A stretch of DNA of 64,000 bases from a virus (IMGVR_UViG_3300017754_002544:60114-124113), one strand, 5' to 3'; shown: positions 2,322-36,672, counted from the first letter of the stretch. Notes: generated by a model not told the origin, from the letters alone. Made by a program: numbers and translations.

Positions 2322-2323
2322 TT

Positions 2324-10649: not shown

Positions 10650-11541
10650 ATTAATTTATTTTTGATACATAAAGTATTTCTTTATCCGGAAACCTTTTCT
10701 CAAATTCTTTTATAGCTTGAGAGTATCCATCAGCATTAATATTAATTCCCGTACACAACTCTTTACCAATTATGTAGCATACATGATAATTATTTTTCAT
10801 CTTCTGTAAATTTTAATAATTAATAACTATTATTTATTCTTAAGTCTAATTCTCTTTCATAAAAATAAGGACAACACCATTTTCTTTCATCGCAGTCAAG
10901 CTTAACCATTGTTCCATTATAGCAACCCACTTGAATCACAGTCGCCCATCCACTAAGATTAGTCTTAACCCTATCTCCTACTTTTAATTCATCAAATGAT
11001 TTCATATTTAAAATCATTAGTTTGTCCTATAGTATCACCTACATCATTACTATGAAGAACTATTAATATATTTTCTTTGTCGTTTAATAATGATTTAAAC
11101 CATTCAAGTTCTTCTTCATCAGCATGACTATACCATAAGTCATCTTCAACTTCTATTGTTGCTTCAATTTTTATTTTCATTACTCTGATTTATAAGTTAT
11201 TATTTTTAATATTTAAATTAACTATTTAACACCAATCCCTTCTCCATCAATGTATAATAACTTTACTATTTCACCATTACCTATAATCGTTAAAGTGGGG
11301 TATTCATCATTTGGAATAGGATGAGTTGGCTTTATTTCATAATTATATTCATAGCAAATTTTATCAACTTTATCAATAAATTCTTTCATTTTATTTGTCA
11401 TTCTATTCTGATTTAAAAGTTTTACACATTGATTCAAAACTGTTGTTGTATACAAATCTTCTCATCTTTGGATTCATTGACATAAATGTTGCCCAACATC
11501 TTTTTCTTAACCAATCAGGTAGTTGTTTACTGTACTTCATT

Positions 11542-11751
11542 CTATTCTGATTTAAAGGTTTTTTCTTCACAACAAATATTAGGCATAATACCAAATACTT
11601 CCTCAATAGTTGCTTCATCATATCCATCAAGTTTTAATGCTAATTCAATAGCATTTCTTATCGCATAAGCATAAGTACAAGTGTGTGTATCAATAGTCAC
11701 TAATGGTCTTTGAGTGCTATCAAAATCTCTATTGTCAATAATTATTCTCAT
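11542..11751 (-). CDS. small cassette protein ending TFKSE
   Basis: bounded on both sides by the junction repeat. Confidence 0.7.
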   Translation of the reverse strand: MRIIIDNRDFDSTQRPLVTIDTHTCTYAYAIRNAIELALKLDGYDEATIEEVFGIMPNICCEEKTFKSE

Positions 11752-11848
11752 TCTATTCTGATTTAAAGGTTTATAAATTCTATAACTACCAATGGTTGTT
11801 CTTCATTCTCTGATTTTAGTCTCATATTTATTCTGATTTAAAGGTTTC
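11747..11848. repeat. 102-bp exact duplication (copy 1; copy 2 at 23124-23225)
   Basis: base-by-base identity; repeat, 20-codon ORF, repeat. Confidence 0.9.
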
Positions 11849-12025
11849 TTGGTAGTATTCTTCTGCATAAAATCTTGCTGATTCACAAGTAGGATAACAA
11901 TGGTCTGATGCAGCATCAATTATTTGTTGTTTTTCCATTTCTTTGGATTGTTTAAATGCTTCTTTTATAGGCATTGTTCCTTCACTTAATTGATATTCCA
12001 ACCACTCTACTGCTGTCTGTTTCAT
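11828..12025 (-). CDS. KQTAVEWL...TFKSE family paralog 1
   Basis: shared motifs AVEWL, KEMEKQQIIDA, YY.ETFKSE. Confidence 0.75.
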   Translation of the reverse strand: MKQTAVEWLEYQLSEGTMPIKEAFKQSKEMEKQQIIDAASDHCYPTCESARFYAEEYYQETFKSE

Positions 12026-12043
12026 CTTATTCTGATTTAAAGG

Positions 12044-12229
12044 TTATCCCCAAATATTATATATTATTATAACACAAGTTGCAAATCCACCAATTATTGA
12101 AATAGCATAAAAAACAATAGGCATTATACCTGTTTGTTGCTCATACCATTGTCCAAAAATTGGTATTAATAGTGATGTGATTGAAACACAAAATATTACT
12201 AAAATTGTTTTTAAAATTCTTTTATCCAT
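12044..12229 (-). CDS. small two-TM membrane protein
   Basis: starts at the repeat ATG (MDKRILK); two hydrophobic segments. Confidence 0.6.
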   Translation of the reverse strand: MDKRILKTILVIFCVSITSLLIPIFGQWYEQQTGIMPIVFYAISIIGGFATCVIIIYNIWG

Positions 12230-12233
12230 CTTA

Positions 12234-12458
12234 TTATAATTTAAAAGTTTTATTGTAATAATGATTAAAACCAAGACCATCTTCCCCTGAGTCTAAAATT
12301 CCAAAGCAATAGGAATCTTCCATCTGCTCCTTCTCCATTGCTTTGGCTTGTTCAAATCTTTTAATCCAATGTGTATCAAGACCTCCCCATTCTTTAAAGA
12401 TTTCTTGAAATTCATTTTCTAACCATTCTACTGCTGTTTGTTTTTCCATTCTTTCCAT
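12234..12458 (-). CDS. KQTAVEWL family paralog 2
   Basis: MEKQTAVEWL...QAKAMEKEQM...YYNKTFKL. Confidence 0.75.
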   Translation of the reverse strand: MERMEKQTAVEWLENEFQEIFKEWGGLDTHWIKRFEQAKAMEKEQMEDSYCFGILDSGEDGLGFNHYYNKTFKL

Positions 12459-12583
12459 GTGTCAAAGTCTTTTAGTTTTTCCATTTGTTCCTGCATCCAT
12501 TTAGCACCTGCTATCCAGTTATCTGTTTTACATAAATTAGGATCAGCTAAGTTAGCTGCAGCTTCTTCTATTTCTTTATCCAT
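12428..12583 (-). CDS. MDKE.E.AA...AGAKW family small protein
   Basis: 51-aa ORF read manually; paralog of 24596..24823. Confidence 0.55.
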   Translation of the reverse strand: MDKEIEEAAANLADPNLCKTDNWIAGAKWMQEQMEKLKDFDTWKEWKNKQQ

Positions 12584-12760
12584 ATCAAATCTTTTTAAGT
12601 ATTAACAAATTTCAAAGAAAATATACCTAATGTAGCAATAGATGCTACACCTAATATAAATACAGCAACTTCTAAACCATGTATTTTCCATACATAAGAC
12701 ACTGCTAACACAAGTATTAAAAATTGAATAATTATAAAAAATATTATCAGTGCTACCATA

Positions 12761-13240
12761 TCAAATCTTTTTAGTTAATATAAGACATCCTTCTGAGTCA
12801 AGTTTTGGTACTAAACAATCAGACATTTTTTCTATATCAGAGTGCTTCCACATAAGATAATCTTCACGCATCTCAATCTCAACTTCTATCTCACTTGGTT
12901 GTAATAAAGCAACTAATTCGGTAAATGTTCTGTTAGGATGATTTTCTAAGGAGTTAAATGCTTTTCTAATATTAGATAAAGTAAACACCTTATCTTTATT
13001 CAACTCCATTGCTTTGTTGAAGCCTGCAATAAAATCTTCTGGATCATAAGAATGTGCAAATTTACTTCCATATTCCTCAGCCAACTTCTCAATATCAAAT
13101 ATTCCAAATAGTGAGTCACAGTTTTCAAATGATAACAGATACATTTCTTTTGAGGGCACTCTTGTTCCTGTGCTTCCAATTTGTTTATCTTCTACAAACA
13201 ATCGGTAGTGGTCTTTGTCTTTCCTAAGTTTTGCTTTCAT
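12761..13240 (-). CDS. hypothetical phage protein
   Basis: 159-aa ORF. Confidence 0.6.
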   Translation of the reverse strand: MKAKLRKDKDHYRLFVEDKQIGSTGTRVPSKEMYLLSFENCDSLFGIFDIEKLAEEYGSKFAHSYDPEDFIAGFNKAMELNKDKVFTLSNIRKAFNSLENHPNRTFTELVALLQPSEIEVEIEMREDYLMWKHSDIEKMSDCLVPKLDSEGCLILTKKI

Positions 13241-13727
13241 CTTCTAATTTTTTAAGTTGTTCTTTAAATGTTTCCAAAGTAATTGTTACATTTAAAATAT
13301 TTACACCTTCGGTTAATAATTCAGTCAGTAAATCAATCTGTGCCTTAATCTTTATGATGTTTACCCATCTATAGAATTCTTCTTCATTAATATTTTTCAT
13401 ATTATTTTCTTTTACTTTTACCTACTATATAACCAAAAATAAACCATAGAACAAACCCTATGTGTGCTATAACTAATACCAATGTCATACTATAAATTAT
13501 TTTTAATGTACTCTAATACTTCAGGAGAAGCACTAGCTTTAAACTTACTCTGATTAATGTGATCAAACATTCTATAGAATACCATAGCATTGTCTTGTAT
13601 ATTATCAAAGCTGTTTATTCTATCTAGTTTCTCCGTGACATAACCATACTGGTTATCATAAGTATTCCATATATCTGTGGCAATACTTTTCATCTCATTA
13701 AATATTTCTTGACTTGGTGTTTCCATA

Positions 13728-14090
13728 TTATTTTAGTTTTAAAATTTCTGTTACAATATACTGCACTAGATATGCATATACTTCTTCTGTTTCATATCCT
13801 GGTTGTATACCTATTCTACTTAATATAGAATAAGCTGCATGATAAGCTTCATGTGCTACTAAACCAATCATTTTTGCATCTCTGCCTATTTTGTCTCTAA
13901 ATCTAACTATAACAAATCCATCACTATGAGTAGCAGTTCTAGCATCTGATCTTTTCCAATCATCAAATGCAAAATCAAACTGCTCTCTAGTAAACTTACT
14001 ACATACAGCATCATATAGCTTATCATCTGATTGATTTATAGATACTAATACATCTGTATTAAATACATCTATTGGTATTACTTTGAACAT
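13728..14090 (-). CDS. HExxH-motif protein
   Basis: VAHEAYHAA...EEVYAYL; start placed at MFKVIP, downstream of the terminator. Confidence 0.55.
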   Translation of the reverse strand: MFKVIPIDVFNTDVLVSINQSDDKLYDAVCSKFTREQFDFAFDDWKRSDARTATHSDGFVIVRFRDKIGRDAKMIGLVAHEAYHAAYSILSRIGIQPGYETEEVYAYLVQYIVTEILKLK

Positions 14091-14111
14091 TTTATTCTCA
14101 TTTAAAATATT

Positions 14112-14157
14112 AAAAAAAGGAGAGGTGTCTCCGACGACCAAGTGTTAACACCTCTCC
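14112..14157 (-). terminator. intrinsic terminator
   Basis: GGAGAGGTGT/ACACCTCTCC 10-bp stem followed by T7. Confidence 0.7.
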
Positions 14158-14758
14158 ATAAGCTACAAAAACAGTATGAATACTGAGTTTGGATGAGCAG
14201 TTTAATATTATGCTCAGAATAATTATTACTTATTTGTAAGTATTTATTTCTTTATTAGTCAACCTTGAAAGTAGCACCAGAGCATTATAATCATGTGTTC
14301 TTTTTTTATCTATTACTTCTAATAAATTATCAATGTCATAGAGAACTTCCCATAAGTACTCTTCCCTCCTGTTTTCTTCAATAAATGCTTGTTCAACTTC
14401 CTGTATTAAATCAATTACTATTTGACTATAATTTTCCATATTATAAAAAGAATCATGACTTAGTTCTTTTAATGTTTCCATATTACTTAGTTTTAAATAT
14501 TAAATTATTTGAAGGACTCTTTGTATTTCCCATACTTTTTGTTGAGCAGCATATTTCATCAATTTTTCAAACACATTCTCTAATGTATCAGTATCATATA
14601 CCTTGATAGAATCACCATTTAACTTAAAAGAATTTCTGTCTTCTTCAAATCCTAAATTTTTTAAAGCATTTTTTATTTCATTAATTCTATTCTCTTGCTT
14701 AGATGCTTTTTGATTTTCTCTCATTTTTTGTAGAATTTCTTCTGGTATGTGTGTCATA

Positions 14759-15073
14759 TTACTTAGTTTTAGTTAATACTTTATGTTTATATCTTCTGTG
14801 GTCTCTCATAGTAGCAGCCCATTCTTCACCACCTTTGTAGTAGATCATAGTACCACCTCTAGCAGCTCTGTTTGCTAAATCTCTTTCTTTCTTCTTAGGA
14901 TCCTGTATAAAAGTGATTAGTCTCCTGGATACTTTAAACATCTTGGCTAGCTTCCTCTGACTTAGCCCTTGTTTAGTCCAGTATAAAACCATCTCTTTTT
15001 GACAAGGAAGAAGCTTAACTCTCCTGTCTAAGAATGGAGAATCAAGCTTCATTTTATCTGTCTTGTAAGGCAT
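14759..15073 (-). CDS. HTH DNA-binding protein
   Basis: GLSQRKLAKMFKVSRRLI helix-turn-helix. Confidence 0.65.
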   Translation of the reverse strand: MPYKTDKMKLDSPFLDRRVKLLPCQKEMVLYWTKQGLSQRKLAKMFKVSRRLITFIQDPKKKERDLANRAARGGTMIYYKGGEEWAATMRDHRRYKHKVLTKTK

Positions 15074-15076
15074 TAT

Positions 15077-15490
15077 TTAAAGACTATCTAAACATTTTTG
15101 CACCCATTTAGTACTAAACCAACAGAAACCTTCACCTAAAAACACTTTTGCATTTTTAGATATAGATATAATATCAATTGTTTGATCTGAAAATGTTAGT
15201 GTTTTAGATTCTTTGGTCTCTATAACTGATTTAACTAAATTAAAAAAATCAATAACATCTTGTTTAGAAGAAAACTTTATTGTTTTATACTCTACTATTT
15301 GTTGATACTGGCAATCTCTAAATATTAAAATATATTCATGTATAGAAGTAGAATCTATCGCTTTATATATAGCATGAAACCCCATTTTATGTTGATAAAT
15401 CCGATCATACTTAGGAGTATCTTCTACTTTAATTTGTGCGTTAGTATTTAAACTAAAAAATATTGCTAGTGTTAAAATTAAATTTTTCAT
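15077..15490 (-). CDS. secreted hypothetical protein
   Basis: Bacteroidota-type signal peptide MKNLILTLAIFFSLNTNAQ. Confidence 0.6.
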   Translation of the reverse strand: MKNLILTLAIFFSLNTNAQIKVEDTPKYDRIYQHKMGFHAIYKAIDSTSIHEYILIFRDCQYQQIVEYKTIKFSSKQDVIDFFNLVKSVIETKESKTLTFSDQTIDIISISKNAKVFLGEGFCWFSTKWVQKCLDSL

Positions 15491-16105
15491 ACTTTTTATT
15501 TTATTATTTGTTTTTCAATTGTATTTAATAAACTTTGAACGTCCTCAAACTTTGAGAATCTAATTGCAGGAAAGGTATCAAAAAATTCTACATACCATTC
15601 ATCTTCATTATCTATTTCAGTATTTGCATTAGATATTAACTCAAGACCATTTACTATCTTGTAGACATAGTATCTAAATGGCTTATCTCCACTTTCTTGA
15701 GATGATACATATATCTTTTCAAATTTTAGTAATTCTATTTCTTTTTCTGTCATTTTGAAAATATTAAAATTAAAACTATTCCTAATACGATTGCTAATAT
15801 AGTCAATTGTATCATATCTTTGCAATCTTCTTTCATAATTTTTTTGACAAATCTATTAACATTTGCTCCTGATCACTTGTGAGTAAGTATCTAGACTTGT
15901 TTATCTTATCTATAACCTCGTGCCATTCATAGTCAATAGCTGATGGAGATGTTACTTCGTTTATATTTCTTCTAGAAATTATAACAAAACCATCTTCTTC
16001 TAGCATTTCAGCTAACTCCTTTTTTTCTCTATCACATAAGTCATAATAAATATCGTCTATGTCTAAATCTACGGTTACTTCTGTTCTCATAATTTACATT
16101 TTAAA

Positions 16106-16618
16106 TTAAACACTTAATTCTTCCTTATTTACAATTGATTTTAGTTTTTCAACATATGTAGGATCACCTGCATAGTTATTCTTTAGGTATTGATAATAAT
16201 CCTTCTTACTTTTAATCTTAAATACAAATGTTGATTGGTATAGTGCGTAATCATACACCGATTGCTCCCAGGATGAATACTTAGCGTGTTTTAAGTATTC
16301 TCCGGAATTTGTAGTAGGTCTAATACTAGCGACCTTCATACCGAATAAGTTGTTTCCAACGCTAAAAGACTTAGATTTAAAATGTCCTGATTCCAATACA
16401 GCTTGAGCATAAACTATCTCAGGATACTTTAAATTTAACTTATCTATCAACTCTTTTAGTTTTTCTTGAGAGAACTCCTCTCCATTTTTATAAACAAATA
16501 CAATCTTTTCAGTTGGTTTTTTATAGTCTTCAACAACCTTAGACAACTTTTCTGATTCTTTACAAGAACCTACTAGCAATACTATTGCTAGAGCTTTTAA
16601 TACATTTCCTATTTTCAT
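16106..16618 (-). CDS. GH73 glucosaminidase-like peptidoglycan hydrolase, probable lipoprotein
   Basis: AQAVLESG, NNLFGMK, YAGDPTY motifs; LVGSC lipobox. Confidence 0.8.
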   Translation of the reverse strand: MKIGNVLKALAIVLLVGSCKESEKLSKVVEDYKKPTEKIVFVYKNGEEFSQEKLKELIDKLNLKYPEIVYAQAVLESGHFKSKSFSVGNNLFGMKVASIRPTTNSGEYLKHAKYSSWEQSVYDYALYQSTFVFKIKSKKDYYQYLKNNYAGDPTYVEKLKSIVNKEELSV

Positions 16619-17466
16619 AACTTCTTTCCTTATTTCGTATCACTATCATCGTTTTATTATCTACGCCATTTATTGTTTATGAAACCATCGGCCATACAAA
16701 TAAGCCAAGAGCCTCCAATAACAATAATTAATATCCATTGTATTGCATTAGGTTGAGCAGCTAAAATCATATCTCTATTGTTTTTGATAAGTTAATAATT
16801 AATTCGTCATAATTCTTAATCATTTCATCAGCTACAAGTTTTAGTCTATCATCTGTTGTAGTTTTGAAATTACTATCTAAATGGTATTGTAAAGTCCTCT
16901 GAGGAATCTCAATACCAATACTCTTTAGTACATGGTGAAGGTCTAGAGTACTTATTCTTCTTTCTTTCATTCTGTAATAAACTTTTCTATCTAATGCTTC
17001 TGTTGAACTATTCATCTATTTCATTTTTTATTTTTTTTAATACATCATCGGCTGCGTCAGCCATTCTATTTAAGTCATCTTCTATTTCAGTACTTCCAAA
17101 GTTCTCTACTTCATTCCTCACTTTCATATACTTAGCTAACATTCTCAATCGTCTAGGTGGAATTATTAACAAAGTGTTTGCAAGTTCAATGGAATATTTT
17201 TTCAAAACTTCATACTCTTTATCAGTTAACATATCATTACTTTTTTATGTATATAGGTTGATCAATTACTTGATACTCACAAGAGTCCTTATCCTCTATA
17301 GCTTTTATTCCTTCAACAGAGTATATTGATACACTAACTATAGAAAAGGTAAAAGCAATTATAATAGGAATTAAATACTTAGGATTAAGCTTTTCAGACA
17401 ATAACATAATTGCATAGAGGCAAGCTCCATAAATAAAAGATAAACATATTATTAAGTGTAGTAGCA

Positions 17467-17829
17467 TCATAGCTTATTTAATTTTTCATTAATCCTTTCT
17501 TTAACAATTTCTATATCATCATTTGTTGGTACATAGTCATTGTATAATTCTTTTGGTACACTGTCCCAAGCATCTGAGTAGTTGGTGACGTTAAAGCCTC
17601 TACTTAAACACTCATCGTATATAGATAAATATCTAATCTTAAGATACTTAAGCTTATCATAGAAGAACTTAACATGACCTTTACCTAATGTGAACTTGTC
17701 TGGTTTACCATCCAATGAATATCTTCCTGACTTTATTACATTTGGTATCCTTTTTATTTCTCTATGTTCAGCTATCAAATGTTTGCTATGCAAATTCTTT
17801 GGAGGTATTCCACAATTAATTCTAGTCAT
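17467..17829 (-). CDS. denV: pyrimidine-dimer DNA glycosylase (T4 endonuclease V-like)
   Basis: MTRIN...HLIAEHREIKRI...FTLGKGHVKFFYDKLKYL. Confidence 0.9.
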   Translation of the reverse strand: MTRINCGIPPKNLHSKHLIAEHREIKRIPNVIKSGRYSLDGKPDKFTLGKGHVKFFYDKLKYLKIRYLSIYDECLSRGFNVTNYSDAWDSVPKELYNDYVPTNDDIEIVKERINEKLNKL

Positions 17830-18000
17830 TCTGTATCTCTAAATAATGTTTAGCTTTATCTATTGCTCTATAATAGTAGTCCCAGGTTAATCCCATTCTA
17901 CTTAGTTCATCCTGGAATTCAGTACACGTATTTTTATTATCTAACATCACTGTGTAAAATAATAATGTTCTAATTAAATCTTTCTCCATTCTATTATGAT

Positions 18001-18222
18001 TTAAAGATTTTCTATTTCTTGTTTAACTTCTTGCCAGTATTTAATTATTGAATAATATTCAGAATTTAATATACCAGTATAATTATTATAATTTATGACT
18101 TCATTAACTGCAATTAAAGCAATTAATATAGCATCTTCTGTATATATTGTTACGTGTCTTTGCTCGAATAAATCATCTTTAAATTTATTTACCAACTCTT
18201 TTGCTTTCTCTTTTGGTGTCAT
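18001..18222 (-). CDS. small cassette protein MTPKEKAKELV
   Basis: bounded by junction repeats. Confidence 0.65.
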   Translation of the reverse strand: MTPKEKAKELVNKFKDDLFEQRHVTIYTEDAILIALIAVNEVINYNNYTGILNSEYYSIIKYWQEVKQEIENL

Positions 18223-18223
18223 T

Positions 18224-18538
18224 TTATTCTGATTTACTTTCTACAATCTCAATACAGTATTTAAGACAAGCAAGTTCTGCTTCTTCATAGGTGTACTCAC
18301 CAGTATCTAACAATTCATCCATAATCCAAATGTGTTTCAATCTGTGCTTTTCTCTAAACCATCTAAATGCTTGTTGAAATAGTGGTGCTTTAAAATCAAT
18401 TGTTCTTGCTTCATCATCAATAAGGTCTGCAAGAATATAGTCATTTTCACCTTTCCACCAATACATAAAACAAGGCTCATCAAATCCAAGTTGCTTCATT
18501 CTTAAAGCTAACTCATAAGATACAAATTCTTTTTTCAT
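18224..18538 (-). CDS. small cassette protein MKKEFVSYELAL
   Basis: starts at the repeat ATG, ends SKSE. Confidence 0.65.
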   Translation of the reverse strand: MKKEFVSYELALRMKQLGFDEPCFMYWWKGENDYILADLIDDEARTIDFKAPLFQQAFRWFREKHRLKHIWIMDELLDTGEYTYEEAELACLKYCIEIVESKSE

Positions 18539-18539
18539 G

Positions 18540-18767
18540 CTATTCTGATTTAAATGTTTCGTTGTAGTATTGTTCTGCTTTTTTATCATCATATCCATAA
18601 TAAACATTTTCTGTAATTAATCCTTTGTCAAAAGCATCAATAATCTGCTGTTTCTCCATTTCTTTTGCTTGTTGAACTAAGTCCCTAAATAATTGAGAAT
18701 GTTTAACATGAGGGAAATCTTTTAGGTTTTTAGCTAACCACTCTACTGCACTTTTTTGGTTTTCCAT
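18540..18767 (-). CDS. KQTAVEWL family paralog 3
   Basis: SAVEWL...QAKEMEKQQIIDA...AEQYYNETFKSE. Confidence 0.75.
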   Translation of the reverse strand: MENQKSAVEWLAKNLKDFPHVKHSQLFRDLVQQAKEMEKQQIIDAFDKGLITENVYYGYDDKKAEQYYNETFKSE

Positions 18768-19219
18768 ACTAATCATTTATTGAAAGTCCTGCATCATTTA
18801 AGAATTCTCTTATAGTTTCTCTTATTGATTCATAAACTTCGTATTCATTTTCTTTTAGTTCTTCATACTTCATTTTGGATCTACAATGCTGGTCCAAGTC
18901 CCATAAGATATACTTATACTTGTGACCATTTATCGCATCTCTGATGTCCTCTGCTTCTTCTATAGAATCAAATTCTAATATAACTTTTCCCATACTTCAT
19001 CTATATTATAAGTTTCATTTGGATATTCTTCTTTTACGAATGAATCAACCTCTGTAGAATCGTCAAGATAATAATCATCTGGCTCAGATAAGAATTGTTT
19101 TAAAGCTAAACATATCGCTGATTGTAAGTCTTCAGCCTCAACTTCTATTCTTTTATAAGATTCCCATCTAATAGGAATACTATATGTTTTATTCACTTTT
19201 CCCATAACTTATTATTTAT

Positions 19220-20077
19220 TTATACTTTTAGGTTTTTAAATATGTGAGCAATAACATCAACAGTCCATCCATCACCTAGCAAACAAGCAGCATCATTTCT
19301 AGATAGAAGTTTAGTGTAACCATTAGGTACATTCTGTGCCCTCTCCATTTCATTTTGATTCATGTATCTTACATCACCTTCTTCAGCTAACTCATAGTTA
19401 TCTTTAAGTCTATTGTAAGTCTCTTCATCTTTAAATATAACTTGCCAAAATCCGTATTTGAAATATCTTCTAGCAATTTTTATTGGATTCTTTAGAGGTC
19501 TCGAATAAGATTCTAATAAGCACATACCCTTATCTCTATCAACATAACCCTCATCAAGAATATCTCTTAGATTAATTCCTTTATCTTGAGGTAAGTCTTC
19601 TATTGGAATATTAGTCCAATAAAATCTATCTCTCAATACACCACTAACCAAAGAACTATTTATTCTAATAGGCTGAACACCAAGCTCTTCGCTAATTAAA
19701 TCTTGCCATTCTTTTTTCATTCTAACATTTTCCAATAAGAAATACTTAGGCTTAAGTTCTTTAAGTAATCTTACATATTCCCAAAACAATCCTGACTTCT
19801 CACCATCAGCACCCTTCTGAACTCTATTAGCCCGGCTAAAGTCTTGACAAGGAGAACCTCCAATAAGTAAATCAATCTTAGGCAAATTATTTGCAGATAA
19901 TTTCGTAACGTCACCCACCTGGTGTGTATTAGGAAAGTTAGATTGAGTAACTGCCATAGCGTGTGGTTTTATTTCACTAGCAAAGTAGTTCTCATAGTTT
20001 ATACCCAATTTGTTGAGGGCGATTTGTCCGCAACTCATACCATCGAACAAACTTAATACATTTTTAATTTGATTCAT
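19220..20077 (-). CDS. DNA cytosine-C5 methyltransferase
   Basis: LSLFDG, GGSPCQ, LLENV, R.RFYW, LGDGW. Confidence 0.92.
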   Translation of the reverse strand: MNQIKNVLSLFDGMSCGQIALNKLGINYENYFASEIKPHAMAVTQSNFPNTHQVGDVTKLSANNLPKIDLLIGGSPCQDFSRANRVQKGADGEKSGLFWEYVRLLKELKPKYFLLENVRMKKEWQDLISEELGVQPIRINSSLVSGVLRDRFYWTNIPIEDLPQDKGINLRDILDEGYVDRDKGMCLLESYSRPLKNPIKIARRYFKYGFWQVIFKDEETYNRLKDNYELAEEGDVRYMNQNEMERAQNVPNGYTKLLSRNDAACLLGDGWTVDVIAHIFKNLKV

Positions 20078-20083
20078 AACTTT

Positions 20084-20974
20084 TTATTTTAAATTTTTAA
20101 ATATGTGTACTAGAACATCAACTGTCCAACCATTACCTAGCATTCTTTTTCTTTGAGACTCTGAGACACCCTTTGTATAATTGTAAGGAACTGTTTGAAG
20201 TCTTTCGTACTCTATTATATTAAGCTCTCTTAAGTCACCATCTACAACTACACCATAGTTACAAGCAGTGTTTAGAGTATTTGATTTACCTACTGATACT
20301 CTGCCTCTTCTTGTATTACTGTTAGGAACTTCTAAGTTAACACAATCTCCATCATTAGCTATTAAGTATCCAAGCTTTGTAGCATTCTTAATCTTGAAAG
20401 ACTTGCCAAGCTTTTCAATAACAACTGGATGGTCATTGAGTATATGTTCAGTTCCTTGAGGACACAAGATATCTAATATAGTAACTCCTTTATCATTTAT
20501 GTTTTTATCGAAAGGTATATTAGTCCAATACAATCTTTGTCTTTTTTGTGCTGAAAAATATTTGCTATCAATCATTATAGGTTCAACACCTAAAGCTTTT
20601 GTGATAATGTCTTCCCACTCTTTCTTCATAACAACATTCTCAAGTAAGAAGTACTTGGGCTTAACTTCATTAAGAACTCTTACGTATTCCCAAAACAATT
20701 TACTCTTGCCATCGAATCCTGAACCATCTCCTGATCGACTAAAGGATTGACAAGGACTGCCACCAATTAGTAAATCAATTTTATCCTCACCAAAATTACC
20801 ACCTTTAACATCTAGTACTGAACCAATATGTATTGTATTTGGATAATTCTTTTGAGCAATTTGAATTGCCCATTTATCTATCTCTGATGCATAGTAGTCA
20901 TCTACTTTAACACCTGCCTTGTTGAGGGCGATTTGTCCACATGACATTCCGTCAAATAAGCTTAGTACATTCAT
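20084..20974 (-). CDS. DNA cytosine-C5 methyltransferase
   Basis: LSLFDG, GGSPCQ, LLENV, QKRQR, LGNGW. Confidence 0.92.
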   Translation of the reverse strand: MNVLSLFDGMSCGQIALNKAGVKVDDYYASEIDKWAIQIAQKNYPNTIHIGSVLDVKGGNFGEDKIDLLIGGSPCQSFSRSGDGSGFDGKSKLFWEYVRVLNEVKPKYFLLENVVMKKEWEDIITKALGVEPIMIDSKYFSAQKRQRLYWTNIPFDKNINDKGVTILDILCPQGTEHILNDHPVVIEKLGKSFKIKNATKLGYLIANDGDCVNLEVPNSNTRRGRVSVGKSNTLNTACNYGVVVDGDLRELNIIEYERLQTVPYNYTKGVSESQRKRMLGNGWTVDVLVHIFKNLK

Positions 20975-22270
20975 ATTTTAATTTTATTTATAAAGATAAG
21001 TAATCTATTTCAATCATTTGTATATATTCCCATGAAAATCTTTCTTTCAATGCTGCAAGTAGTTCGTCATTGTCATATTCATCTAAACCATCACGTTCTC
21101 TTTGCAATATTTCGCTGATAGCTTCTCGTATTTGATTATCATCTAGAGTAGTTATTAAAAAGAAATCTTCTTCCTCGTATGCTGTTGTGTTAATTCTTAC
21201 TGTTCTCATGCTTATTATTTTTGTTATACCATTCAATGAATTGACATACAACGTAGTGCATATCTTCCAATTTAATAGAAATTGGTCTATCTATCACGGT
21301 TTCAATATCACGTGTATCTAATTCAACTCCATCCATACTATATATCTTATCAACAATAGACATCAACCAATCCCATGAGGTGTGGTATTTTAATTCGTGT
21401 GCACAAAAGAATTCAACCTGAATGTCATTTAATTTTTCAGGATTTTGAAATTCAATTGCATACACAAATTCTCCGTTCTCAGTTTGTTCTTCTTCATGCC
21501 CCATGAACTCTGCAATCATTCGATTTTTTTCTTCTATTGTTGTCATGATTATTTTAATTAAAATTCATATTCATTTCCATCTGCATCGTAGTAGCAGTCA
21601 TAGTTATCTTTATTGATTTCTTCATCCCATTCAGTGTAGTAAAACTCATCCAATTCGTATGCTTCTTTCAATATGAATTCATCAGACAAATGATCCATAC
21701 CACCTCTGTTTCTAAGATATTCAACTAAATGTTTTTTTTCGCTGAAATATATCTCTCCATCATTTACTACGTATCCTGCGTTAATACCTCTGCCAGTAGC
21801 ATCACAGACTCTTGCAAACTTTTCCATAGCTATTTAATCTTTTAAAGTTAAACCATCATCTTGTGCAACCATATCAATTGCAAACCATATTTGCTCCATT
21901 GTTGCACCATTAGTCAGAGCTTCATTGATGATACTCTGTGCTTGATCATCGTCATCGCAATTGTATCTATCTTTAACATCATCTATGTGCCATAGATTAT
22001 CTACGAAGTAACCTGCCTTTCTTAATACTTCCTTTGCTTTCTGTATCTCGTTCATGTTATTGGTATAAAGATTTATAATCAGTTACAAAGTTTATAAGCT
22101 CTTGACTATCACCCTCACTGTGACTGTCAATCATCTCACTATCCGTTACTATTTTAGAATAGATTATATACTTATCGTTTTCTTCTACTTCTACTGAAAC
22201 AAACCAAGATCCAAATCCTTGTTTCTTTACATTAATGTGATATACATTCATATTATTTATTTTTATTAAT

Positions 22271-22939
22271 TTACACTTCCTCTTTTAATTTTTCCATCAC
22301 TTCTTCACAAGGTACTTTTTCATTAGTCCAATAGTCATAGAACTCTGTGATATATCCATCTAAAATATCTTGTTCTATCTCGTAACTATCTTTATGTTCA
22401 TACAAATATTCATGGATACCTCCACAATATTCATTCGACTTAAATAGTTTTGCATCGGTATATCCACCACGAGCATCAGCACCATTGTGTATTTGTACTA
22501 TGAAATAGCTATCTCCATCAATTTCAATAGAACTATATTGTAGTATCTGAGATAAGTCTGAGTCGTAGTTGTAAGTATTTGTAACATACTTAACTTCAAC
22601 TGAATAGTTTTCTATTAGATAATTCCAAGCTTCTGAACTAACACCATATACCTTATCATCATCAGCATCCCAATTGTCAGGATTAGTATTAAGTTTATTG
22701 AACTCTTCACATATACTATCTAAGTCTAATCCACATAGGTAATGATATACACTAACTGTTCTATAAATATATCCGGTTTTTCTATCAAAGGAATAAGATT
22801 CTTCATCCTCGTTTTCAAAATCATCGATAGATTTTGTAGCATTTCTTTGCCACATTCTACCATCAGTACCACCTGAATCTAAGAAGTGAACTCCTGTATT
22901 TTCAGTAAGCATACTATAAACTATATCTTTTACTCTCAT
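22271..22939 (-). CDS. acidic early hypothetical protein
   Basis: 222-aa ORF. Confidence 0.65.
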   Translation of the reverse strand: MRVKDIVYSMLTENTGVHFLDSGGTDGRMWQRNATKSIDDFENEDEESYSFDRKTGYIYRTVSVYHYLCGLDLDSICEEFNKLNTNPDNWDADDDKVYGVSSEAWNYLIENYSVEVKYVTNTYNYDSDLSQILQYSSIEIDGDSYFIVQIHNGADARGGYTDAKLFKSNEYCGGIHEYLYEHKDSYEIEQDILDGYITEFYDYWTNEKVPCEEVMEKLKEEV

Positions 22940-23123
22940 TCTATTTTTATTTTAGTCATTTTCTATATTAAACTTATTGCATAAAATTTCTCTAATCACA
23001 TCTTGTGCATCGAACTCTGTTGGGTCATCTGTATCTGTACAATCTTTTATTATACCTTCTTCAACCATTTTCCCAACGATAATAATTGACAAATCTTTAA
23101 TGTCATCTAATGTTTTAATTGTG

Positions 23124-23225
23124 CTCATTCTATTCTGATTTAAAGGTTTATAAATTCTATAACTACCAATGGTTGTTCTTCATTCTCTGATTTTAGTCTC
23201 ATATTTATTCTGATTTAAAGGTTTC
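23124..23225. repeat. 102-bp exact duplication (copy 2), containing two junction repeats
   Basis: identical to 11747-11848. Confidence 0.9.
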
Positions 23226-23426
23226 GTTGTAGTATTGTTCAGGATTTTTTAACCTGCCTTTATATGGGTGGATACATTCTAATTCATAGTTATCTGCAAA
23301 ATCTATCATCTGCTCTTTCTCCATTTCTTTGGCTTGTTTAATCCATATATTAGGTATATGCACTGAATCTTTAGTCAATATTTCAATCAACCATTCTACT
23401 GCTGTCTGTTTTTCCATTCTTTCCAT
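23205..23426 (-). CDS. KQTAVEWL family paralog 4
   Basis: MERMEKQTAVEWL...EQYYNETFKSE. Confidence 0.75.
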   Translation of the reverse strand: MERMEKQTAVEWLIEILTKDSVHIPNIWIKQAKEMEKEQMIDFADNYELECIHPYKGRLKNPEQYYNETFKSE

Positions 23427-23427
23427 A

Positions 23428-23706
23428 TTATTTAATTTTATATAGTGAGTAACTGTTTATGATTGATTCTTTATTAACACCTGCGGTTACTTTACTACTA
23501 GTCCATTCACCATTAGTACGTACAAAAGCTTCACCTTTTTCACTTGCTGCTTTCAATGCAGCTTCTACATGGATCTTAGCAAATTCAATTGCTTTATCAT
23601 AAGAACAAACAGGGGTAAATTCACCTTCTTTATTCTTTACAGAATAAGCTGTATATAAACCATTATCTAACTCAAAAAACTCTTCTGCTGTTGGTATTTT
23701 TTCCAT
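23428..23706 (-). CDS. small cassette protein MEKIPTAEEF
   Basis: starts at the junction-repeat ATG (23704). Confidence 0.6.
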   Translation of the reverse strand: MEKIPTAEEFFELDNGLYTAYSVKNKEGEFTPVCSYDKAIEFAKIHVEAALKAASEKGEAFVRTNGEWTSSKVTAGVNKESIINSYSLYKIK

Positions 23707-23707
23707 T

Positions 23708-24091
23708 CTATTCTGATTTAAAAAGTTTTCTACCAATTGTAACTAATGAATCGTATTCTATTTTATCAACATTATTATTGTCAGTATCCATCCAATTAGG
23801 AGATACTTTTGGATTATATGTTAGCCTATTTTTATCTAAGTTATGACTACCACCACCAATGCATATGTCTACTTTTTGAGACATTATCCAAGCACATACA
23901 GTTTTTGTACCCCCATCATATATCTTTTTAGCTGAACCTTTTTGATTATATAGTTTACAATTAGTTAATTTTAATTCATAATCTTCAGGATCAAAAAACT
24001 TAACATCTTTTGTTTCAGTATTTTCAACCCTCCATTTCATAAAGTTTTCTCCTCTTCCTAAATGAAATCTAGTTTTGAATATCCTTTTCAT
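23708..24091 (-). CDS. hypothetical protein ending LFKSE
   Basis: sequence unrelated to the paralog family but ends in the junction repeat. Confidence 0.65.
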   Translation of the reverse strand: MKRIFKTRFHLGRGENFMKWRVENTETKDVKFFDPEDYELKLTNCKLYNQKGSAKKIYDGGTKTVCAWIMSQKVDICIGGGSHNLDKNRLTYNPKVSPNWMDTDNNNVDKIEYDSLVTIGRKLFKSE

Positions 24092-24369: not shown

Positions 24370-24595
24370 AATTAAACGATTTTGATGATAGTGCTAAACG
24401 CAACATATCTGTTAAACAATTCCATATACAATTAATATTGAATGATGACCGTGTGAACAAACACCATCAGGCTCTACCTCACATCCTTCACTACAACAAG
24501 CAGGAACAATAGAATCAAAGCAATAAGATTCAATCATATCAACTACTGAATCGTATCCATACTCTTCAGCAACTTCTTCTAAACTAATTTTCATT

Positions 24596-24823
24596 CTACT
24601 TCTTTTTAAATTGTTCAAACCATTTATTCCAATCTTTATCAAAATCTCCAATATTAGTTGCTGAAAATGGTGTGTAGTTTACTTTAAACGCTTTTTTTAA
24701 ATCTTCCTCACTATACATTCTTTCAGCTTGCCATTTAGCACCTGCCATAAAACTTTCTCTTCTAGTTCCAATAACAGGTTGTGTTACCCAATTATTAGCA
24801 GCTTTTTCTAATTCTTTATCCAT
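24596..24823 (-). CDS. MDKE.E.AA...AGAKW family small protein
   Basis: paralog of 12428..12583. Confidence 0.6.
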   Translation of the reverse strand: MDKELEKAANNWVTQPVIGTRRESFMAGAKWQAERMYSEEDLKKAFKVNYTPFSATNIGDFDKDWNKWFEQFKKK

Positions 24824-36423: not shown

Positions 36424-36672
36424 TTATAAAACACAATAAACCTCTCCTTCATTTAAAAGAATGTATTCTTTATCTTCTACTGTAATTAATTTTCCAGCAT
36501 ATTCACTAAAGATTACGATACTTCCAATCTTTATTTCTGATGTAACTTCATCACCAATTGATACTACTACGCCTCTATCTGGTTTTTTATTTGGATCAAT
36601 TATGATACCTGATATAGATTTCTCTTGAGTATTTTCTACCTCTACAATTATTTTATTATTTATTGCTTTCAT
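36424..36672 (-). CDS. groES: co-chaperonin GroES
   Basis: SGIII...G.VV..G...F.EYAG. Confidence 0.9.
   Translation of the reverse strand: MKAINNKIIVEVENTQEKSISGIIIDPNKKPDRGVVVSIGDEVTSEIKIGSIVIFSEYAGKLITVEDKEYILLNEGEVYCVL

What the first reader, a model, noticed from the sequence alone, without database searches (positions are those of the whole stretch)
11178..23730. Modular gene-cassette system: a ~24-bp junction repeat links at least 13 small, mostly unrelated genes
Seen: on the minus strand, AAACYTTTAAATCAGAATARNATG or a close variant supplies the start codon of the next gene at 11178, 11399, 11538, 11749, 11823, 12023, 12227, 17987, 18220, 18536, 23126, 23200 and 23704. Unrelated proteins therefore share a TFKSE/LFKSE/SKSE C-terminus. 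The element also persists in another frame (genes ending NL* at 18001 and in the 20-aa ORF) and after a stop codon (12044, 11180), so it is conserved as nucleic acid rather than as a peptide. Inference: it is a combined stop/restart and recombination linker that makes promoterless genes exchangeable units. This resembles integron cassettes or lambdoid boundary sequences, but it has no attC-like palindrome and there is no integrase in the window. RecA, an SSB-like protein and exonucleases are encoded nearby.
Basis: partly seen in the sequence, partly recalled or inferred. Interest (0 to 1): 0.82.

Follow-up and report, generated by a model that had tools for sequence, protein, structure and literature searches.

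The report
Shared stop-restart junction linking phage genes
A 24-letter sequence that ends one small gene and starts the next is repeated 14 times in this lake phage and recurs letter for letter in many barely related phages, where the genes on its two sides are reshuffled independently, so it looks like a natural plug for swapping phage genes.

Summary
AAACCTTTAAATCAGAATAGAATG (J) occurs 12 times at up to 3 mismatches (0.01 expected). All copies are on the minus strand at 11.1-23.8 kb, and J gives the most repeated 11-mers of the complete 124-kb phage genome.

J is not private to this phage. Its exact 19-mer core stands in at least 119 IMG/VR contigs. It is absent from cultured phages and at about chance level in 596 Gb of bacterial genomes. 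Three complete J-bearing phages share only 10-19 of this phage's 220 ORFs.

J is conserved as nucleic acid:
- It keeps the rare Thr codon ACC in 98 of 119 cases, against 5.7% genome-wide.
- It persists as an untranslated spacer after a stop.
- Its ATG sits in a fixed register (231 of 261).
- It has A at -3, -6, -12 and -13, the known Bacteroidia initiation determinants.

About two thirds of copies are the 3' end of one small-gene family (KTAVEWL...YYNETFKSE). Across J the two flanks assort independently (3 of 124 linked). Neighbouring J-less junctions stay linked (54 of 173). There is no integrase and no attC.

My best reading is a stop/restart translation junction that doubles as portable homology for cassette exchange, like PeSLs or mycobacteriophage SAS. 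No mechanism is shown. First-stage notes of this scan recorded the same junction in several other genomes.

The parts
11178..11197 (-). Weak J variant (TATAAATCAGAGTA + ATG) in front of gene 10992-11180. It lies 41 nt after the upstream stop.
   Evidence: core with 2 mismatches.
11399..11422 (-). J copy. It ends a 45-aa ORF (...CKTFKSE*) and starts gene 11222-11401.
   Evidence: 0 mismatches.
11538..11561 (-). J copy. It ends a 69-aa ORF (...EEKTFKSE*) and starts the 45-aa ORF.
   Evidence: 0 mismatches.
11749..11772 (-). J copy read in the other frame. It ends the 20-aa ORF (...INL*) and starts gene 11542-11751.
   Evidence: 0 mismatches.
11824..11847 (-). J copy with the spacer variant TAAATATG. 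It ends KTAVEWL paralog 11828-12025 and precedes the 20-aa ORF.
   Evidence: 3 mismatches, core exact.
12023..12046 (-). J copy of the TAACC form. The upstream membrane-like ORF stops just before CCTTTAAATCAG, so here J is an untranslated spacer. It starts a KTAVEWL paralog.
   Evidence: 1 mismatch.
12227..12250 (-). Degenerate J (..TTTAAATTATAATAAGATG) at the end of KTAVEWL paralog 12234-12458.
   Evidence: 2 mismatches.
14088..14111 (-). It directly follows a 10-bp-stem hairpin plus a T-run and starts gene 13728-14090 (phrog_1365).
17987..18010 (-). J copy in the NL* frame. It ends gene 18001-18222 (phrog_21441) and starts gene 17822-17989.
   Evidence: 2 mismatches.
18220..18243 (-). Weak J variant (AGTAAATCAGAATAAAATG) that ends the 104-aa ORF (...VESKSE*).
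18536..18559 (-). J copy that ends KTAVEWL paralog 18540-18776.
   Evidence: 1 mismatch.
23126..23149 (-). J copy. It is the downstream edge of the duplicated mini-cassette.
   Evidence: 0 mismatches.
23201..23224 (-). J copy that ends KTAVEWL paralog 23205-23426. It is the upstream edge of the duplicated mini-cassette.
23704..23727 (-). J copy that ends the L5-gp82-like gene 23708-24091 (...KLFKSE*). In homologues elsewhere the C-terminal tail varies.
11747..11848 (-). 102-nt block (J, 20-aa relic ORF, J) that is identical to 23124-23225. Identity begins at the outer edge of one J and ends 2 nt past the ATG of the other.
23205..23426 (-). KTAVEWL...YYNETFKSE small-protein gene, one of four paralogs (the others are 11828-12025, 12234-12458 and 18540-18776). 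The family's 3' end is J.
   Evidence: 1527 relatives at E<=1e-3.
14479..14770 (-). Gene 14500-14757, flanked here by two copies of a different 16-mer junction (AAAACTAAGTAATATG). The same gene, 88.7% identical in DNA, is flanked on both sides by canonical J in locus L011.
24592..24613 (-). Second junction type (CAATTTAAAAAGAAGTAGAATG, end of ...WFEQFKKK*). It has the same skeleton and register as J.

Best explanation
J is a 22-24-nt stop/restart translation junction of phages of Bacteroidota, hosts that do not use Shine-Dalgarno sequences.

It places TTTAAA and further adenines at the positions that favour initiation in Bacteroidia, in a fixed register with the next gene's ATG. It carries stop codons in the two other frames (TAA, and TAG or TAA). 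An upstream gene therefore ends inside J or just before it, and the ribosome starts the next small gene a few bases on.

[quoted passage not shown] Because the same letters stand at many junctions in one genome and in many unrelated phages, J also serves as a short stretch of homology. Co-infecting or co-resident DNA can recombine there, so that whole small genes are inserted, lost, duplicated or swapped with their expression signal intact.

Shown: the sequence features, the nucleotide-level conservation, and the independent assortment of the two flanks.

Inferred: the translational coupling; homologous recombination as the mechanism; and that sequence identity is maintained by selection on expression together with repeated exchange.
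For: (1) Register and strand. ATG stands at exactly +16 from the core in 231 of 261 instances. In loci chosen through a neighbouring protein rather than through J, 64 copies lie on the gene strand and 1 on the other.

(2) Stops. Of 261 instances, 152 upstream ORFs stop at the TAR of J, 43 at the TAA inside TTTAAA, and 29 at 0-10 nt before the core.

(3) Initiation context. J has A at -3, -6, -11, -12 and -13. Baez et al. 2019 (PMC6847099, abstract and passages) name A at -3, -6, -12 and -13 as positive determinants in Flavobacterium johnsoniae. This phage's own 141 J-less gene starts show A at -13 (0.54), -12 (0.65), -11 (0.74), -6 (0.52) and -3 (0.60). J junctions are slightly less structured than controls (0.586 against 0.558 unpaired, p 0.003).

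(4) Nucleic-acid conservation. The ACC codon is kept in 98 of 119 YYNETF ends, against 107 of 1893 Thr codons genome-wide. The flank AACC, which was not used for selecting instances, is 84-96% conserved, and conservation starts inside a codon. 51 of 170 distinct junctions have the TAACC form, in which most of J is untranslated. In 1.44 Mb of loci not chosen by J, 49 ATGs carry the perfect 16-mer in register, against 0 in a shifted control.

(5) Spread. At least 119 IMG/VR contigs hold the exact 19-mer. Three complete J-bearing phages share only 10-19 of this phage's 220 ORFs.

(6) Shuffling. Among pairs of J junctions from different dereplicated loci, upstream and downstream flank similarity are independent (3 / 170 / 121 / 9423; OR 1.4; p 0.49). 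J-less junctions within 2 kb are strongly linked (54 / 75 / 119 / 36821; OR 223; p 9e-94) (the all-loci version is). Non-KTAVEWL genes that end in J never share the downstream neighbour (0 of 82 pairs), against 344 of 1275 for local controls.

(7) Footprints. A 102-nt J-relic-J block is duplicated exactly, edge to edge. The same gene is flanked by J in L011 and by another repeated 16-mer here.

(8) A second widespread junction (53 contigs) has the same TTTAAA...TAG-N-ATG skeleton and register.
Against: - No RNA, ribosome or recombination data exist for this phage, so every functional step is inferred.
- A good initiation context does not need the invariant T, C and G positions (CC, TCAG). The strict identity is therefore not explained by translation alone.
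- About two thirds of upstream ORFs are one family (131 of 198). Part of the pattern is simply paralog 3' ends, and 'same family upstream' cannot be resolved into orthologs.
- Loci L001-L119 were found with the exact 19-mer, so the core and the TAGAATG tail are fixed by ascertainment in those primary hits. In the J-unbiased loci the flank test has too few pairs (0 of 1 against 2 of 57).
- Gene calls and families come from my own crude ORF caller and single-linkage BLAST clusters.
- In the closest relatives seen as contigs, the indels that could be read lie at ordinary junctions or between paralogs, not at J: 20010-20918 between the two methyltransferase paralogs, the insertion at 22264, and the variable block of about 13730-15075. 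Contigs break at J, so events there could not be read.
- A RecA homologue is present in only 1 of 16 other records searched, so no specific recombinase is tied to J.
Confidence: 0.55

Rival explanations
1. J is an operator for a sequence-specific trans-acting factor. The factor could be a phage-encoded RNA-binding translational repressor or endoribonuclease that switches a whole class of early genes (as T4 RegA and RegB do; recalled). It could instead be a DNA-binding protein acting like mycobacteriophage stoperators. Strict identity would then reflect binding, and shuffling would be a side effect.
For: About 20 positions are near-invariant, including ones with no role in a generic A-rich initiation region. 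J overlaps the start codon in a fixed register. It has one orientation only. It is confined to one accessory-gene block. The authors of the closest analogue, SAS, leave the same possibility open (PMC3203893, passages).
Against: No candidate factor was found. J-bearing complete phages share only 10-19 of 220 ORFs with this one. Beyond the KTAVEWL family, the only ORF shared by 3 of 3 J-bearing and 0 of 2 J-less genomes is an unannotated 99-aa protein, which is far too small a sample. The KTAVEWL protein is a three-helix protein with no fold match. No antisense copy of J exists in the genome. This reading does not by itself predict independent assortment of the flanks.
Confidence: 0.2
2. J has no function of its own. 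It is the leftover 3' end of KTAVEWL paralogs, spread by duplication and by insertion of that selfish small gene in front of many genes. It looks conserved because the copies are young.
For: 131 of 198 upstream ORFs are the family, and 53 of 217 downstream genes are too. YYNETF is conserved as protein. Degenerate and truncated copies exist. The mismatch spectrum declines smoothly (49, 38, 22, 11 copies at 0-3 mismatches).
Against: J is kept where it is not translated: 51 of 170 junctions have the TAACC form, and 50 of 261 are read in the other frame. It is identical in phages that share under 10% of their ORFs, at 20-45% identity. The rest of the family gene is far less conserved than J. Family members with other tails use ACC less often (18 of 28 against 80 of 91). 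39 unrelated upstream families end in J.
Confidence: 0.12
3. J is a promoter read by a phage-modified or phage-encoded RNA polymerase. It would give leaderless or near-leaderless mRNAs, which would explain the fixed distance to the ATG.
For: The register to the ATG is fixed. TTTAAAT resembles AT-rich phage late promoters (recalled). One variant (14088) sits directly behind a strong hairpin terminator, with no room for another promoter.
Against: J holds no Bacteroidetes -33 / -7 (TAnnTTTG) element, and such elements are not enriched on the gene strand (9 against 15 on the other strand). Sigma-70-type sites are not enriched (93 found, 99 expected). There is no sigma-70 region 2 in the genome. 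The T7-type RNA polymerase search was blank, but its control also rang nowhere. Most F. johnsoniae mRNAs are leadered (PMC6847099 passage). In 224 of 261 cases an upstream ORF ends within or just before J, as expected for coupling within operons.
Confidence: 0.08
4. J is the site of a dedicated site-specific recombination system, an integron-like cassette platform.
For: There are arrays of small unrelated genes, each bounded by the same oriented repeat. A repeat-bounded unit is duplicated.
Against: There is no tyrosine recombinase and no serine recombinase in the complete genome, and the controls rang in 14 and 12 of 14 genomes. J has no attC-like imperfect inverted repeat. J is fused to the coding and start signals. 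Gene content shared among J-bearing phages is minimal.
Confidence: 0.03

Closest known systems
PeSLs (promoter-early stem-loops) of T4-type phages (Arbiol et al. 2010, PMC2839356; Comeau et al. 2014, PMC4122927; abstracts and outlines read)
   Same: Both are short, conserved, oriented expression signals repeated between small accessory genes of a hyperplastic region. Both act as points of exchange between otherwise unrelated sequences.
   Different: PeSLs are a sigma-70-like promoter plus a terminator stem-loop in intergenic DNA. J has neither. J works, if at all, at the level of translation, overlaps the upstream coding end and the next ATG, and is shared by phages with almost no common genes. 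PeSL mini-circles were shown experimentally; nothing comparable is shown here.
Start-associated sequences (SAS) of Cluster K mycobacteriophages (Pope et al. 2011, PMC3203893; passages read)
   Same: Both are asymmetric repeats in one orientation, confined to the non-structural part of the genome. Both sit directly before ATG starts of genes of different families, sometimes contain the upstream stop, and are virtually absent from host genomes. The function of both is unproven, with translation initiation suspected.
   Different: SAS is 13 bp (GGGATAGGAGCCC), contains a Shine-Dalgarno core, lies 3-7 bp from the start and is limited to one phage cluster. J is 22-24 nt, has no SD, is contiguous with the ATG, is mostly the 3' end of one gene family, and is spread over very distant phages. 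In the passages I read, the SAS paper does not address flank shuffling.
Linker or boundary sequences of lambdoid phages (the modular-evolution idea of Susskind and Botstein; boundary sequences in HK620-type comparisons; recalled, not read here)
   Same: Both are short conserved sequences at gene boundaries, proposed as crossover points for module exchange.
   Different: The lambdoid examples are few, weakly conserved and disputed. J is a single well-defined sequence with hundreds of copies and a measurable loss of linkage across it.
Integron attC / gene cassettes
   Same: Both involve arrays of small, mostly promoterless, unrelated genes separated by a recurring site.
   Different: J has no integrase and no attC hairpin, and it is part of the coding and start signal.

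Membership tests
Integron gene cassette / attC | IntI-type tyrosine recombinase encoded with the array | tested here: not met
   PF00589 gives no match in the complete 124-kb genome; the control rang in 14 of 14 genomes. PF00239 (serine recombinase) also gives none.
Integron gene cassette / attC | Imperfect inverted repeat (attC) that folds as a hairpin at each cassette end | tested here: not met
   Of 54 inverted pairs found in 10.5-24.5 kb, the 25 longest were listed, and none pairs arms within or beside J. The only palindrome in J is TTTAAA.
PeSL (T4-type promoter-terminator cassette) | Strong host-type promoter inside the repeat | tested here: not met
   Sigma-70-type sites: 93 found against 99 expected. 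Bacteroidetes TAnnTTTG: 9 on the gene strand, 15 on the other, none in J. These are consensus scans only.
PeSL (T4-type promoter-terminator cassette) | Stem-loop terminator inside the repeat | tested here: not met
   8 terminator-like sites in 17 kb. Only one (14119-14132) adjoins a J variant, and none adjoins the other 13.
PeSL (T4-type promoter-terminator cassette) | Insertions, deletions and replacements between phages are bounded by the repeat | tested here: met
   Flank linkage is 3 of 124 across J against 54 of 173 at nearby J-less junctions. Similarity ends 12-23 nt upstream of the ATG in 70 of 94 J pairs with a breakpoint. This is a comparison among distant phages, not among close pairs.
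PeSL (T4-type promoter-terminator cassette) | Circular single-cassette DNAs formed by recombination between repeats | not testable with these tools
   Only assembled contigs of DNA runs were available. Joints there have 22-31 nt on one side and come from the repeat itself.
Start-associated sequence (SAS) of Cluster K mycobacteriophages | Asymmetric repeat in one orientation, immediately upstream of ATG starts, in the non-structural region, absent from hosts | tested here: met
   9 exact hits in 596 Gb of bacterial genomes, against at least 119 viral contigs.
Start-associated sequence (SAS) of Cluster K mycobacteriophages | Consensus GGGATAGGAGCCC with a Shine-Dalgarno core | tested here: not met
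   J has a different sequence without GGAG. The feature is taken from PMC3203893.
Bacteroidia-type SD-less translation initiation region | Adenines at -3, -6, -12 and -13 (0 = A of AUG), an A-rich -14 to -11, and no extra AUG nearby | tested here: met
   Reading J against PMC6847099: A at -3, -5, -6, -8, -11, -12 and -13, and no second ATG. The phage's other 141 starts show the same A positions.
Bacteroidia-type SD-less translation initiation region | Drives initiation or re-initiation in vivo | not testable with these tools
   No RNA or ribosome data, and no cultured phage carries J.
-1 programmed frameshift site (X XXY YYZ) | Slippery heptamer T TTA AAT read in the zero frame of a long upstream ORF | tested here: not met
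   That register is the longest open frame in only 7 of 261 instances. In the two frames actually used, a -1 shift meets a stop or has no slippery codons (reading of the sequence).

The most novel reading that the evidence does not exclude
J is a standardised exchange-and-expression plug that is itself the unit under selection. It would be a pan-lineage adaptor, one of at least two compatibility types, the second being the ...FEQFKKK* junction. Any small gene that carries it could move between unrelated freshwater Bacteroidota phages by short-homology recombination and be translated at once by termination-reinitiation without a Shine-Dalgarno sequence. This would be a natural, recombinase-free counterpart of integron cassettes, and direct support for the linker model of phage mosaicism.
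Probability: 0.3. Interest if true: 0.8.

Novelty: new variant of a known kind. Interest (0 to 1): 0.64.

Why it matters
How phage mosaic boundaries arise is an old open question. One view is homologous exchange at short conserved linkers. The other is random illegitimate joins sieved by selection.

J offers one defined sequence with hundreds of natural copies, a measurable loss of linkage across it, and local J-less junctions as internal controls. That makes the question testable in lake viromes and in a Flavobacterium reporter system.

J also bears on how genes are coupled translationally in Bacteroidota, which ignore Shine-Dalgarno sequences. It gives a practical marker for the accessory-gene (probably host-takeover or anti-defence) regions of a large group of uncultured freshwater phages. 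It could also serve as a ready-made junction for building polycistronic constructs in Bacteroidota.

Tried and rejected
**RNA evidence.** The look-up of sequencing runs listed no RNA holder, so expression, transcript ends and cleavage could not be examined.

**Read laying on contigs of four lake DNA runs.**
- Many loose ends and joints fall at J edges (for example 11421, 11536, 12025, 18222, 23206). Their matching sides are 22-31 nt, and any phage that carries J produces them, so I do not count them as recombinants.
- Depth spikes on the J and KTAVEWL bins reflect other phages.
- Contigs of the about 98-99% identical relatives end at J. Cassette differences there are unreadable.

**Close relatives.**
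- The search for related loci in viral and metagenome contigs returned nothing above 63% protein identity.

**Cultured phages.** There is no homologue of the KTAVEWL protein and no copy of J in 50,697 records. The 21 weak DNA hits are chance matches.

**Antisense regulator.** No anti-J stretch better than 12 of 14 exists in the genome.

**Known RNA families.** None at E<=1 in 9-26 kb.

**KTAVEWL protein function.**
- No Pfam match reached its curated cut-off (best E 8.6e-4 at a 0.1 limit) and there was no PHROG match.
- The AlphaFold2 model is three helices with pLDDT 86.
- No PDB fold match at E<=0.001.
- Atlas neighbours are viral hypothetical clusters.

**The 16-mer AAAACTAAGTAATATG as a second general junction.** It gave 85 single hits in unrelated virus types. 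I judge that to be near chance for an AT-rich 16-mer, so I treat it as local.

**Association of J's 3' spacer variants with either flank.** Confounded by the way L001-L119 were chosen, so not used.

**Frameshift or fusion reading of TTTAAAT.** Rejected; see the membership test.

**RecA as partner of J.** Rejected (1 of 16 records).

**Literature.**
- The literal strings of J and of the peptide ends find no relevant paper among 8.1 million PMC papers and 0.36 million preprints.
- A topical search found none either (listing only).
- Supplements were not opened.

**Rows dropped.**
- L120-L128 (bacterial-genome hits) were left out of the gene and junction analyses.
- Genes over 200 aa were left out of the neighbour tests.
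- Pairs within one dereplication group were left out of the neighbour tests.
- The KTAVEWL cluster was excluded as anchor.

Full report
**What is there.** The window is the second half of a complete, terminally redundant 124,113-bp virus record (123-bp end repeat, 32% G+C).
- Its genes run rightward over 1-58 kb of the genome.
- They run leftward over about 58-91 kb, which is window 1-31 kb.
- The finding lies in that leftward block, among small genes.

**The motif is real.**
- Two further claimed sites are weaker variants at gene starts.
- The 14-nt core at up to 1 mismatch occurs 11 times on the minus strand, never on the plus strand, and nowhere else in the genome.
- Its 11-mers are the most repeated of the whole genome.
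- The reading-frame claims hold. In frame b, J reads T-F-K-S-E-stop. In frame a it reads N-L-stop. At 12044 the upstream gene stops just before CCTTTAAATCAG.

**It is not private to this phage.**
- It is in no cultured phage of 50,697 records.
- It is in only 9 places in 596 Gb of bacterial genomes. By my own arithmetic on the collection size, that is about what chance gives; two of the nine are Bacteroidota bins.
- In 59 loci fetched through a neighbouring 159-aa protein, not through J, 30 carry the core: 64 copies on the gene strand and 1 on the other. There too its 12-mers are the top within-locus repeats.
- In 16 other large records, J occurs in 15, as 1-6 copies. Exact copies are mostly clustered within 0.1-8 kb on one strand. 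This phage has the most copies seen.
- Three complete J-bearing phages (65, 117 and 118 kb) share only 10, 19 and 17 of this phage's 220 ORFs of 50 aa or more, mostly at 20-45% identity. That is no more than two J-less phages share (10 and 17).
- First-stage notes of this scan had recorded the same junction in several other genomes, without follow-up.

**Anatomy over 261 instances (119 loci plus this genome, core at up to 1 mismatch).**
- ATG stands at exactly +16 in 231.
- The downstream ORF has a median of 67 aa.
- Upstream ORFs of 35 codons or more stop as follows:

| Where the upstream ORF stops | Instances |
|---|---|
| At J's TAR | 152 |
| At the TAA inside TTTAAA | 43 |
| 0-10 nt before the core (typically TAACC in place of AAACC) | 29 |
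| Elsewhere inside J | 3 |
| Further away | 21 |
| No such ORF | 13 |

- The third frame, which would fuse the two genes, is the longest open frame in only 7.
- Variants exist in which the stop and start overlap instead (..GAAGAATGA..). Proximity of stop and start is therefore what persists.

**Whose sequence is it.**
- Two thirds of upstream ORFs (131 of 198) and a quarter of downstream genes (53 of 217) fall in one BLAST cluster. This is the 65-80-aa family KQTAVEWL...QAKEMEKEQ...EQYYNETFKSE.
- The family has 1527 relatives at E<=1e-3 in the 5.8-billion-protein set, and the names sources give the 120 listed are nearly all 'hypothetical protein'.
- It has no PHROG match and no Pfam match above a curated cut-off.
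- The confident model is three helices (pLDDT 86) with no PDB fold match.
- So J is first of all the 3' end of this family.
- It is not only that. 39 other upstream families and 81 downstream families flank J.
- In the L5-gp82-like family of gene 23708-24091, the tail ...KLFKSE occurs in a few members while the others end differently.

**Conserved as nucleic acid.**
- The Thr of YYNETF is ACC in 98 of 119 family genes found with a profile. ACC is 107 of 1893 Thr codons in this genome.
- With the KSE tail, ACC is 80 of 91. With other tails it is 18 of 28.
- The flank AACC, which played no part in choosing the instances, is 84-96% conserved. The G that opens the preceding GAA codon is only 53% conserved, so conservation starts inside a codon.
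- Of 170 distinct junctions, 51 have TAACC, so there most of J is an untranslated spacer.
- In 1.44 Mb of loci not chosen by J, 49 ATGs carry the perfect 16-mer CCTTTAAATCAGAATA in register. The counts are 38, 22 and 11 for one, two and three mismatches. The same consensus scored 7 nt further upstream gives 0, 1, 0 and 2.

**What the letters suggest.**
- Counting the A of ATG as 0, J has A at -3, -5, -6, -8, -11, -12 and -13, and no other ATG.
- Baez et al. 2019 found A at -3, -6, -12 and -13, an A-rich -14 to -11, and avoidance of extra AUGs to be the features that tune initiation in Flavobacterium johnsoniae, a member of a phylum that lacks Shine-Dalgarno sequences (PMC6847099; abstract and passages).
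- This phage's 141 other gene starts show the same profile: A 0.54, 0.65 and 0.74 at -13 to -11, 0.52 at -6, and 0.60 at -3, with no G-rich tract. This also fits a Bacteroidota host.
- J junctions are slightly less base-paired than other small-gene junctions (0.586 against 0.558, p 0.003).
- A second junction, CAATTTAAAAAGAAATAGTATG, is the end of ...WFEQFKKK. It is exact in 53 viral contigs and present with 2 mismatches at window 24592-24613. It has the same skeleton, TTTAAA at -16 to -11, then TAG, one base, ATG.
- I read J as an idealised SD-less start region built into the end of the preceding gene, that is, a stop/restart junction. This is inference; no expression data exist.

**Gene neighbourhoods break at J.**
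- I called genes with a simple ORF caller in 179 loci (142 groups after dereplication at 95% identity). This gave 4505 genes and 3852 same-strand junctions, of which 188 have J.
- Restricting to genes of 200 aa or less, and to control junctions within 2 kb of a J junction:

| Anchor gene | Junction type | Pairs sharing the other neighbour family |
|---|---|---|
| Non-KTAVEWL gene ending in J | J | 0 of 82 |
| Non-KTAVEWL upstream gene | J-less control | 344 of 1275 |
| Gene preceded by J | J | 45 of 174, which I take to be mostly KTAVEWL paralogs (not checked) |
| Downstream gene | J-less control | 267 of 1113 |

- At the DNA level, in L001-L119, pairs of J junctions show no association between similarity of the 36 nt before J and of the first 60 nt after the ATG. 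The counts are both 3, upstream only 170, downstream only 121, neither 9423 (OR 1.4, p 0.49).
- J-less junctions within 2 kb give 54, 75, 119 and 36821 (OR 223, p 9e-94).
- Given a similar downstream gene, the upstream flank is also similar in 3 of 124 pairs against 54 of 173.
- Over all loci the figures are 3 of 149 against 528 of 2069.
- In the J-unbiased loci there are too few pairs to say anything (0 of 1 against 2 of 57).
- Where a breakpoint exists, similarity ends 12-23 nt before the ATG in 70 of 94 J pairs, that is, at J's 5' edge. Without J it ends 0-3 nt before the ATG in 1344 of 1878.

**Worked examples.**
- One 223-aa gene follows J in four loci with four unrelated upstream sequences.
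- Gene 14500-14757 is 88.7% identical in DNA to a gene in L011 that has canonical J on both sides. Here it has a different repeated 16-mer on both sides.
- A 102-nt J, relic ORF, J block is duplicated exactly 11.4 kb apart. Identity starts at one J's outer edge and stops 2 nt past the other's ATG.

**Mechanism.**
- The parsimonious reading is homologous exchange at J. Convergence on 24 identical letters is implausible. Moving J with only one flank would need precise illegitimate joins again and again.
- No dedicated enzyme is evident: no tyrosine or serine recombinase and no attC-like repeat.
- The phage has a bacterial-type RecA, but only 1 of 16 other records searched has a homologue.
- From recall, about 25 bp is near the minimum for efficient RecA-dependent exchange in E. 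coli. I did not check this.

**What remains unexplained.**
- It is unclear why the non-adenine letters (CC, TCAG) stay invariant in phages whose shared proteins are 20-45% identical.
- Repeated exchange that demands identity, selection on expression, or a sequence-specific factor could each contribute.
- I found no antisense partner, no Rfam family, no sigma factor and no host-type promoter in J.

**Limits.**
- L001-L119 were chosen with the exact 19-mer.
- Gene calls and families are my own and crude.
- KTAVEWL paralogs cannot be sorted into orthologs.
- Close relatives could only be seen as short contigs that break at J. The readable differences among them lie at ordinary junctions or between the two methyltransferase paralogs.
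- No RNA run is listed.

**Comparison and verdict.**
- J behaves like the PeSLs of T4-type phages, as an expression signal that doubles as an exchange point. It lacks their promoter and stem-loop.
- It looks like the start-associated sequences of Cluster K mycobacteriophages in position, asymmetry, orientation and absence from hosts. It has another sequence, no SD core and a far wider spread.
- It is not an integron.
- I file it as a new variant of a known kind: a translation-level, SD-less junction repeat that marks and probably mediates cassette exchange among very distant freshwater Bacteroidota phages.
- Searches for its letters, its peptide end and the topic found no description in print.

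Noticed in passing
window 24592-24613 (-), and 53 IMG/VR contigs (L353-L402 and others): A second nucleotide-conserved junction, CAATTTAAAAAGAAATAGTATG. It is the end of a ...WFEQFKKK* small-gene family plus the next ATG, with the same TTTAAA...TAG-N-ATG skeleton and register as J. Some contigs (L089, L100, L185) carry both types.
   Followed up: partly
window 19220-20077 and 20084-20974 (-): Two tandem paralogous C5 cytosine-methyltransferase-like genes. Contigs of two other lake runs join 20009 directly to 20919, so relatives have one hybrid copy. This is a deletion by recombination between the paralogs, not at J.
   Followed up: partly
window 14112-14229 (-): A 140-nt non-coding gap with a perfect 10-bp-stem hairpin (GGAGAGGTGT...ACACCTCTCC) and a T7 run, directly followed by a J variant and gene 13728-14090. 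The whole block of about 13730-15075 is thinly covered or replaced in the near-identical relatives laid.
   Followed up: partly
window 22264: A contig of one run (X3) carries 784 extra bases exactly at the junction between genes 22271-22939 and 22057-22251, beside a weak copy of the AAAA.TAA.TAATATG 16-mer.
   Followed up: no
genome 1864-2163 (+), outside the window (L433): A 99-aa ORF is the only one, beyond the KTAVEWL family, with homologues in 3 of 3 complete J-bearing phages compared and in 0 of 2 J-less ones. It has no PHROG match and only a sub-threshold Phage_SSB hint (E 0.017). The sample is far too small to call it a partner.
   Followed up: partly
loci L129-L187: Another repeated oriented motif, CTTTCGTATATTAA, occurs several times per locus in 5 loci (15 extra copies). 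It is unrelated to J.
   Followed up: no
window 16106-16618, 17467-17829, 36672-38258, 675-3301: Accessory genes in the leftward blocks of the window, some within the J-bearing stretch: an endolysin-like protein, a T4 endonuclease V (DenV)-like protein, a GroEL-type chaperonin, and both ribonucleotide reductase subunits.
   Followed up: partly
window 11763-11825 and 23140-23202 (-): The 20-aa 'ORF' inside the duplicated block contains a decayed J (CTAAAATCAGAGAATG). It looks like the scar of a deleted cassette rather than a gene.
   Followed up: partly
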